Shown here in pieces: positions 11,901 to 13,016 of a DNA stretch of 64,000 nucleotides. The notes under the pieces were generated by a model. That model had not been told where the DNA came from and ran no database searches. It saw only the letters and a program-made list of their open reading frames with translations. A program made the position numbers and the translations under genes. The stretch is from Escherichia coli (GTDB taxonomy: Bacteria; Pseudomonadota; Gammaproteobacteria; Enterobacterales; Enterobacteriaceae): NCBI RefSeq assembly GCF_024298765.1, contig NZ_CP101210.1. One strand, 5' to 3'. Numbering within the stretch: position 1 is the first letter of the stretch; each line of letters starts with the position of its first letter.

Positions 11901-13016
11901 CTAAATAGCTGCGCTTAATACCGCTACACTTTTGCCAGCCCATGTTTGCCTCCGGGGAATGGGCTAACGGTTTCCATAAAATGGCGAACTTTTTTCAACA
12001 GTTGCCACATTGAGCGGCACTGATGATTACGCGTTATTGTGTCGTGAAGTGCCTGCCATAGCCGTTCAACATGATTCACCCATGGCGAGTAAACCGGCTG
12101 ATAAATGACCCTGAACTTCGGGTTCTCCTTCAGCCAGCTCTGTGTTTCCCGGCTTTTGTGGATAATGTAGTTGTCCACGATCAGCGTGATGGTTTTCGCC
12201 CGACGGTATGTCGCTTTAAGCCGTTTCAGCAGGCTGATGAACAGCGCCGAACTTTTGCTGTTGCCGCCCACATAGCTGGCTTTACCTGTCCCGGCGTGAC
12301 CACCCGTTTTTGCTGTCCGCGCAGTTGCCAGTCCGCACCGATTTTGGGATTAAGATGGATATCCACTTCATCTTCATAAAAGACCGGATGCTCTGCGCAG
12401 CATTCGTCCAGTGCTTTATGGATTGCTGCCATCTTTTCATCTTTATGCGGGTCACGGATACGCAGAGTTGGCGCAGCCCTTCGCCACACAATCCCCGCAG
12501 ACGGCAACCAGCGGCGAACGGTTCCGGCATTTAACTGGCAACCGGTTATCTCATTGATTTTTATTGCCAGCAGTTCTGTACTCCAGCGTGAACGCTGGTA
12601 GCCAAAGTCGCCGGGAGAATGTTTTACCAGCTCACGTAACAGTGTGCAGATATGCTCAAACGGCCAGCGACGGGCACGCCCGGCAGGTAATGATTTCAGT
12701 CCCTCAACACCCGACTGCGTGAACCAGTTAATCCAGCGTCCAACAGAGGAACGGGCGCAGCAGAGCGTTCTGGCAACGTCGCTGACACGGTCGCCCCGGT
12801 GCAGCATCAGCATGGCAGTCAGTCTGCGGGCATAATTTTTATCGTGTGTTTTATGGATGGCTTTCTGCATCAGGCGTCGTTCGTCACGGGAAATTGGTGC
12901 TATGATCGGCATTGCTCAGTCCGGTTGGTGATTTGTTTTGATTTGGCGATTGATCAGATCGCACAATCCGGGCTGAGTTCCCTCAAAGTGATCTACTATT
13001 CCGCGCAGCTATTTAG
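11901..13016 (-). mobile_element. IS630-family insertion sequence, ~1116 bp (about 37 bp shorter than canonical IS630)
   Basis: Terminal inverted repeats CTAAATAGCTGCGC (11901-11914) and GCGCAGCTATTTAG (13003-13016) flank the transposase reading frames. Confidence 0.8.
11924..12912 (-). pseudogene. IS630 transposase, disrupted by a frameshift (two ORFs 12226..12912 and 11924..12271)
   Basis: N-terminal and C-terminal pieces both match recalled IS630 transposase; frames differ across 12226-12271. Confidence 0.8.

What the first reader, a model, noticed from the sequence alone, without database searches (positions are those of the whole stretch)
11901..13016. IS630 copy inactivated by a short internal deletion
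Both inverted repeats are intact, but the element is about 1116 bp rather than the ~1153 bp I recall for IS630, and the transposase is split into two frames across 12226-12271. This is consistent with a ~37-bp deletion causing a frameshift, so this copy is probably non-autonomous.
Basis: partly seen in the sequence, partly recalled or inferred. Interest (0 to 1): 0.35.

Follow-up and report, generated by a model that had tools for sequence, protein, structure and literature searches.

The report
Defective IS630 copy, 43-bp deletion
This is an ordinary dead copy of the insertion sequence IS630: a 43-bp internal deletion has broken its transposase gene, it sits at one fixed spot in the aspV-tRNA island of about 190 sequenced E. 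coli strains, and public annotation already flags it as a frameshifted pseudogene.

Summary
The element proper is 11904-13013 (1110 bp).

Against an intact 1153-bp IS630 (E. coli VL40 plasmid pINV, 343-aa transposase) the window copy has 9 substitutions and one 43-bp deletion, not about 37 bp. The deletion lies between two 8-bp direct repeats (CTGTCCCG), and the surviving repeat is at 12286-12293. It removes 14 codons plus one base. The transposase gene is therefore split into a 228-aa ORF (DNA-binding domains and the first catalytic Asp) and a 115-aa ORF (second Asp and Glu).

It is not an assembly error. The deletion junction occurs in 189 of 5426 complete E. coli genomes, and 189 genomes carry the element with the same flanks. 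No plasmid among 72,556 and no GTDB species representative has the junction.

An empty site in strain 23CRST035 confirms true transposition with TA duplication in CTAG. Both ends are identical or nearly identical to active IS630, so the copy could in principle be moved in trans. There is no sign that this ever happened.

RefSeq already annotates it as "IS630 family transposase, frameshifted". Verdict: real, correctly interpreted, ordinary, low interest.

The parts
11904..13013 (-). IS630 copy with a 43-bp internal deletion (1110 bp; transposase gene on the minus strand)
   Evidence: Alignment A1 with intact 1153-bp IS630 from pINV of E. coli VL40 shows 9 substitutions and one 43-bp gap. The same sequence is annotated 'IS630 family transposase, frameshifted' in CFT073, Nissle 1917 and strain 64.1.
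11902..11903 (.). TA target-site duplication, copy next to the 3' end of the transposase gene (preceded by C11901 of the CTAG target)
   Evidence: The empty site in strain 23CRST035 reads ...GATTGCCTAGCTGCAG... with a single TA (alignment A3).
13014..13015 (.). TA target-site duplication, copy next to the 5' end of the transposase gene (followed by G13016 of CTAG)
   Evidence: Same empty-site alignment. All four aligned elements are flanked by CTA...TAG.
11904..11932 (+). Terminal inverted repeat at the 3' end of the transposase gene (imperfect, about 28-29 bp; the first 11 nt are perfect)
   Evidence: Comparison of the two ends. This end is identical to intact IS630.
12985..13013 (-). Terminal inverted repeat at the 5' (promoter-proximal) end of the transposase gene
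   Evidence: It differs from pINV IS630 by one base (12989 T versus G), and that base is shared with two other intact elements.
12286..12293 (.). Deletion junction: the single surviving copy of the 8-bp direct repeat CTGTCCCG. Intact IS630 has two copies 43 bp apart, start to start.
   Evidence: Alignment A1 columns 396-438. Repeat positions and the 43-bp spacing were computed.
12226..12912 (-). ORF1, 228 aa. Residues 1-209 correspond to the IS630 transposase N-terminus (HTH DNA-binding domains and the inferred catalytic D181), followed by 19 out-of-frame residues and a stop.
   Evidence: Pfam HTH_23, HTH_32, HTH_29, HTH_28 and HTH_33. NCBIfam transpos_IS630 profile positions 1-179. Protein alignment A2.
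11924..12271 (-). ORF2, 115 aa from a GTG. It corresponds to the IS630 transposase C-terminus (residues 229-343, with inferred D261 and E297). The homologous frame runs upstream to the junction.
   Evidence: Pfam DDE_3. NCBIfam transpos_IS630 profile positions 204-298. Alignment A2. Frame translation.

Best explanation
This is a once-active IS630 (IS630/Tc1/mariner superfamily, cut-and-paste DDE transposon). It inserted into the TA of a CTAG in the accessory module of the aspV-tRNA island.

Later it lost 43 bp between two 8-bp direct repeats (CTGTCCCG). The most likely cause is replication slippage or another microhomology-mediated deletion. The loss removes codons 210-223 plus one base. Translation therefore leaves the transposase frame after residue 209 and stops 19 codons later.

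The first catalytic Asp lies in one ORF and the second Asp and the Glu lie in another frame, so no functional transposase can be made. Both terminal inverted repeats are intact, so the copy is a non-autonomous fossil that could be moved only by an IS630 transposase supplied in trans. It has since been inherited, or transferred, together with the island as a single orthologous locus.

Shown: the identity, the boundaries, the target duplication, the size and position of the deletion, the ORF split and the distribution. Inferred: the slippage mechanism, the catalytic residue assignments and the loss of activity.
For: - **Ends and ORFs:** the terminal inverted repeats and the two overlapping minus-strand ORFs are present.
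- **Domains:** ORF1 carries HTH domains and ORF2 carries DDE_3. Against NCBIfam transpos_IS630, ORF1 covers profile positions 1-179 and ORF2 covers 204-298, while the intact protein covers 1-298 in one piece.
- **The lesion:** the DNA alignment with three intact 1153-bp elements shows one 43-bp gap and 9 substitutions relative to pINV IS630. The gap is bounded by CTGTCCCG repeats 43 bp apart.
- **Protein level:** residues 210-223 (NEKYYLAGALHSGT) are missing and the frame changes.
- **Bona fide insertion:** removing the element plus one TA, and the neighbouring IS66-family element plus one GAACAATA, restores the contiguous sequence of strain 23CRST035 at 98% identity.
- **Distribution:** the junction 60-mer is in 189 of 5426 genomes, and the element with 500-bp flanks is also in 189 genomes. 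The junction is in 0 of 72,556 plasmids and 0 GTDB species representatives.
- **Existing annotation:** RefSeq marks it as a frameshifted pseudogene.
- **Family behaviour:** TA duplication and a preference for CTAG are the published behaviour of IS630 (the Tenzen 1990 and 1991 titles, and the text of PMC2170065).
Against: Nothing contradicts this reading.

- Loss of activity is inferred, not measured.
- The catalytic residues (D181, D261, E297) are assigned by motif (DE..., DNxxxH, NxxExxW) and by the Pfam DDE_3 match, not from a structure.
- The two counts of 189 genomes were not checked genome by genome, so the claim of a single locus rests on equal counts plus one place per record in the rows sampled.
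- Shigella chromosomes, where IS630 is most abundant, are not in the collections searched.
Confidence: 0.93

Rival explanations
1. The two-ORF arrangement is a programmed recoding device (ribosomal -1 frameshift or transcriptional slippage), as used by some IS630-family members, and a functional fusion transposase is still made.
For: Frameshifting and transcriptional realignment are documented in the IS630 family (PMC5009743). ORF2 lies in the -1 frame relative to ORF1. The overlap contains a short run, A_AAA_G, on the coding strand (12251-12258), where a Lys-tRNA could re-pair one base back.
Against: The closest relatives (99.2%, 97.9% and about 89% identity) all have one uninterrupted 343-aa ORF, so the split is a derived lesion and not a conserved design. 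A four-A run is far shorter than known slippage sites, and there is no canonical X_XXY_YYZ heptamer. Even if slippage occurred there, the product would lack 14 residues and carry 11 wrong ones in the catalytic core between D181 and D261.
Confidence: 0.02
2. The 43-bp gap is a sequencing or assembly artefact and the real genome carries an intact IS630.
Against: The identical junction is found at 100% identity in 189 independently assembled complete genomes from many laboratories and platforms, including CFT073, Nissle 1917, ABU 83972 and ATCC 25922. A 43-bp loss between exact 8-bp repeats is a typical biological deletion, not a homopolymer-type error.
Confidence: 0.01
3. The deleted copy is an actively trans-mobilised non-autonomous element that spreads using transposase from intact IS630 copies, in the manner of a MITE.
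For: Both ends are intact and essentially identical to those of active IS630. Transposases of this superfamily act in trans on such ends (PMC2170065).
Against: The number of genomes with the junction equals the number with the same flanks (189 and 189). Sampled records have one place each. No plasmid and no GTDB species representative carries the junction. CFT073 and most other carriers listed have no second IS630-like sequence that could supply transposase (places_in_record = 1).
Confidence: 0.03
4. The 228-aa ORF1 product (complete DNA-binding region without a complete catalytic site) is expressed and retained because it binds IS630 ends and acts as a repressor or dominant-negative inhibitor of incoming IS630.
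For: ORF1 keeps the native start, the upstream region and all HTH domains. Truncated transposases that inhibit transposition are known for other elements; this point rests on general knowledge and was not tested here. The sequence is 100% conserved among carriers.
Against: The 100% identity is equally explained by recent common ancestry of the island. There is no evidence of expression. There is no comparative signal of selection, with only 9 substitutions relative to IS630. IS630 is rare in E. coli generally, so its scarcity in carrier genomes is uninformative.
Confidence: 0.03

Closest known systems
IS630 of Shigella sonnei and the Shigella/EIEC pINV plasmids (1153 bp, 343-aa transposase; RefSeq 'IS630-like element IS630 family transposase' WP_004989531.1)
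   Same: 99.2% nucleotide identity outside the gap. The terminal repeats are identical or nearly so. TA is duplicated within CTAG. The gene organisation and protein domains are the same.
   Different: The window copy lacks 43 bp (codons 210-223 plus 1 nt), so it is 1110 bp long with a split, non-functional transposase gene. It also differs by 9 point substitutions.
ISEc33 (IS630 family, E. coli; 1153 bp)
   Same: Same length class, same end motifs, same CTA/TAG flanks and a 343-aa ORF.
   Different: Only about 89% identical (125 substitutions). The 8-bp repeats that bound the deletion are not conserved in it. The window copy therefore derives from IS630 proper, not from ISEc33.
IS630-family members that use programmed frameshifting or transcriptional realignment (for example Roseiflexus IS630-type elements, PMC5009743)
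   Same: Two overlapping ORFs, with the DNA-binding part upstream and the catalytic part downstream in the -1 frame.
   Different: In those elements the arrangement is ancestral and carries a dedicated slippery motif. Here it was created by a deletion that also removes part of the catalytic core, and close relatives have a single ORF.

Membership tests
IS630 (the element itself, IS630 family) | Terminal inverted repeats of IS630 (about 28 bp, imperfect, beginning AATAGCTGCGC) | tested here: met
   Both ends are present. One is identical to intact pINV IS630 and the other differs by one base, which is shared with other intact copies.
IS630 (the element itself, IS630 family) | Insertion into TA with 2-bp TA duplication, preferentially in 5'-CTAG-3' | tested here: met
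   The element is flanked by C-TA ... TA-G. The empty site in strain 23CRST035 has a single CTAG. The target preference comes from the Tenzen 1990/1991 titles and PMC2170065.
IS630 (the element itself, IS630 family) | A single transposase with N-terminal HTH DNA-binding domains and a DDE_3 catalytic domain (NCBIfam transpos_IS630) | tested here: not met
   The homology is unambiguous, but the gene is split. ORF1 matches profile positions 1-179 and ORF2 matches 204-298, and neither carries the whole triad. The sequence is a member by descent, as a pseudogene, and not a functional member.
IS630 (the element itself, IS630 family) | Canonical length of 1153 bp | tested here: not met
   1110 bp here, against 1153 bp in three intact relatives measured between the same end motifs.
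IS630 (the element itself, IS630 family) | Autonomous transposition activity | not testable with these tools
   This needs a mating-out or papillation assay. The distribution (one locus) argues against mobility since the deletion.
Programmed-frameshift IS (ORFA / ORFAB type) | Slippery motif in the overlap and a two-ORF layout conserved among close relatives | tested here: not met
   Relatives have a single 343-aa ORF. The overlap contains only an A4 run.
MITE-like or trans-mobilised deletion derivative | Multiple copies of the same deletion derivative at different sites with their own target duplications | tested here: not met
   The junction is in 189 genomes and the same flanks are in 189 genomes. 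There are 0 plasmids and 0 GTDB species representatives with the junction.

The most novel reading that the evidence does not exclude
The truncated 228-aa ORF1 protein carries the full IS630 DNA-binding region and only one catalytic residue. It might be expressed from the fossil and bind IS630 ends, acting as a resident inhibitor ('immunity') against incoming IS630 in aspV-island lineages such as CFT073 and Nissle 1917. Alternatively, rare -1 slippage on the A_AAA_G run at 12251-12258 might yield a shortened fusion protein with residual activity.
Probability: 0.03. Interest if true: 0.3.

Novelty: already known. Interest (0 to 1): 0.06.

Why it matters
It matters little beyond correct annotation. 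The useful outputs are the exact boundaries (11904-13013), the exact lesion (43 bp between CTGTCCCG repeats) and the fact that the allele is one fixed locus. That locus can serve as a lineage or island marker for aspV-island-bearing E. coli such as CFT073, Nissle 1917, ABU 83972, ATCC 25922 and several APEC strains. The copy is also a tidy example of microhomology-mediated decay of an insertion sequence.

Tried and rejected
- **Programmed frameshift:** rejected, because the closest relatives have one 343-aa ORF and the split coincides with a 43-bp gap.
- **Assembly artefact:** rejected, because 189 independent complete genomes share the junction.
- **Trans-mobilised derivative:** I looked for the junction 60-mer in 72,556 plasmids. 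No place covers at least 80% of it, and 139 plasmids carry only the undeleted form. An exact 32-mer scan of GTDB species representatives gave 0 hits.
- **Intermediate state, IS66-family element present but IS630 absent:** no genome covers at least 80% of that construct. The order of the two insertions therefore remains unknown. That search did turn up the doubly empty site.
- **K-12 CP4-44 region as an empty site:** its arrangement differs, so it was not usable.
- **Original IS630 papers:** I tried to read PMC213363 and PMC208372 for the published length and target data. Neither is held.

Full report
**1. What is in the sequence**

The region contains a pair of terminal inverted repeats, 11901-11920 and 12997-13016. 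It also contains two overlapping minus-strand ORFs: 12226..12912 (228 aa) and 11924..12271 (115 aa).

- ORF1 carries the HTH_23, HTH_32, HTH_29, HTH_28 and HTH_33 DNA-binding domains. ORF2 carries the C-terminal part of DDE_3.
- Against NCBIfam transpos_IS630 (299 positions), ORF1 covers positions 1-179 and ORF2 covers 204-298. An intact IS630 transposase covers 1-298 in one piece.
- A 26-nt IS630 end motif occurs only once in the 64-kb window, against 0 expected by chance. There is no second copy nearby.

**2. Boundaries and the lesion**

I retrieved three intact relatives from complete E. coli genomes:

| Relative | Source | Identity to the window copy | Transposase |
|---|---|---|---|
| IS630 proper | plasmid pINV of strain VL40 | 99.2% | 343 aa, WP_004989531.1 |
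| Chromosomal IS630-family copy | strain 98232 | 97.9% | 343 aa |
| ISEc33 | strain KFu015 | about 89% | 343 aa |

In the four-way alignment all elements begin AATAGCTGCGC and end GCGCAGCTATT, and all are flanked by CTA...TAG. Between those motifs the three intact elements measure 1153 bp and the window copy measures 1110 bp, at 11904-13013.

The difference is one 43-bp gap, plus 9 substitutions relative to pINV IS630. Intact IS630 reads ...TTTAC-CTGTCCCG-CTGTGCAGCGCTCCGGCCAGATAATATTTTTCATT-CTGTCCCG-GCGTGA... The window keeps only one CTGTCCCG, at 12286-12293.

A deletion of exactly one repeat unit plus the intervening 35 bp is the signature of slippage between short direct repeats. That mechanism is an inference.

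Forty-three bases equal 14 codons plus one base. At the protein level residues 210-223 (NEKYYLAGALHSGT) are lost. ORF1 then runs out of frame for 19 codons (VKPAMWAATAKVRRCSSAC) to a stop at 12226, and the homologous frame continues as ...TGKASYVGGNSKSS... into ORF2.

By motif, the catalytic triad is D181 (YEDEVD), D261 (IVDNYI) and E297 (NHVERLW). D181 is in ORF1, and D261 and E297 are in ORF2 (the assignment is inferred from family motifs and the DDE_3 match).

**3. A genuine transposition event**

A search with a reconstructed 'empty' sequence found strain 23CRST035. I removed the IS630 copy plus one TA, and the adjacent IS66-family element (13030-15407) plus one copy of its 8-bp duplication GAACAATA (13022-13029 and 15408-15415). 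This gives a sequence that aligns colinearly, at 98% identity, with that strain, which has a single CTAG followed by a single GAACAATA.

TA duplication within CTAG is the published behaviour of IS630. The sources are Tenzen et al. 1990 and Tenzen & Ohtsubo 1991, as cited in PMC2170065, which also shows the cut-and-paste, TA-duplicating mechanism for the family.

**4. Not an artefact, and not mobile since the deletion**

- The full 1116-bp query matches at 100% identity in many complete genomes, including CFT073, Nissle 1917, ABU 83972, ATCC 25922 and several APEC strains.
- A 60-mer was designed so that only deletion-bearing copies can cover at least 80% of it. It is found in 189 of 5426 genomes, and undeleted copies stop at base 44 as expected.
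- The element with 500 bp of flank on each side is covered at 80% or more in 189 genomes as well.
- No plasmid among 72,556 carries the junction, although 139 carry the undeleted sequence. An exact scan of one genome per GTDB species found none.
- Most carriers, CFT073 included, have no other IS630-like sequence that could supply transposase (places_in_record = 1).

The simplest reading is one insertion, then one deletion, then inheritance with the island. I did not intersect the two sets of 189 genomes one by one.

**5. Context**

The copy lies about 3.6 kb from tRNA-Asp (aspV, 16618-16694). It is in the CP4-like accessory module of the aspV island: antirestriction, RadC/JAB, DUF987, CbeA/CbtA-type toxin-antitoxin, DUF5983, then DUF957 and DUF4942. 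RefSeq (PGAP) already annotates the identical sequence as 'IS630 family transposase', pseudogene, 'frameshifted'.

**6. Rivals**

- **Programmed frameshifting.** It exists in the IS630 family (PMC5009743). ORF2 is in the -1 frame, and there is an A_AAA_G run at 12251-12258. However, the nearest relatives have a single ORF, the split coincides with the deletion, and any slipped product would still lack 14 residues and carry 11 wrong ones inside the catalytic core.
- **Artefact.** Excluded by section 4.
- **MITE-like spread.** Not supported by section 4.
- **A regulatory role for the truncated DNA-binding protein.** This cannot be excluded, but nothing supports it.

**7. Verdict**

The deletion size (43 bp, not about 37), the boundaries (11904-13013) and the position of the lesion (12286-12293) needed correcting.

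The element is a decayed insertion sequence, it is already flagged in public annotation, and it has no unusual features. It is a member of IS630 by descent and not a functional member. Interest is low.

Noticed in passing
window 13030-15407 (duplications at 13022-13029 and 15408-15415): An IS66-family element lies 14 bp (13016-13029) from the IS630 copy. It has terminal repeats GTAAGCGTCAA / TTTACGCTTAC and an intact 8-bp target duplication GAACAATA. In the identical sequence of strain 64.1 its tnpC and first ORF are annotated as frameshifted, so it is probably defective too. In CFT073 and Nissle 1917 the same element is further interrupted by ISEc45 (IS110 family), which is absent from the window.
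   Followed up: partly
window 11858-11904 and 15364-15558: The CTAG hit by IS630 contains an in-frame TAG stop of a short DUF957-type ORF (ATGACATCA...ATTGCC-TAG). The stop is also present at the empty site of strain 23CRST035, where it is annotated 'internal stop', so the gene was already broken before the insertion. The DUF957 CDS that RefSeq annotates downstream (WP_001313570.1) starts about 44 bp inside the end of the IS66-family element. It is therefore a chimeric ORF whose start is supplied by that element.
   Followed up: partly
other E. coli genomes (hits H82-H90), matching window 11901-11956: Many E. coli chromosomes carry an unannotated, isolated 56-bp match (about 98% identity) to one end of IS630 and nothing else of the element. 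These look like solo terminal remnants.
   Followed up: no
window 16618-16694, 24843-30073, 63003-63112: tRNA-Asp (aspV) marks the island boundary. A complete rRNA operon (16S, tRNA-Ile, tRNA-Ala, 23S, 5S, tRNA-Asp) follows on the minus strand. There is an Rfam CssrA sRNA match at 63003-63112 (136 bits) and a StyR-44 match at 28102-28201.
   Followed up: no
strain 98232 locus L004 and about 290 other genomes (95-99% identity band): A distinct IS630 sub-lineage (97.9% identity, intact 343-aa ORF, WP_001354603.1) circulates on E. coli chromosomes. It shares some bases with the window copy that pINV IS630 lacks, for example 12989 T and 12975 G.
   Followed up: no
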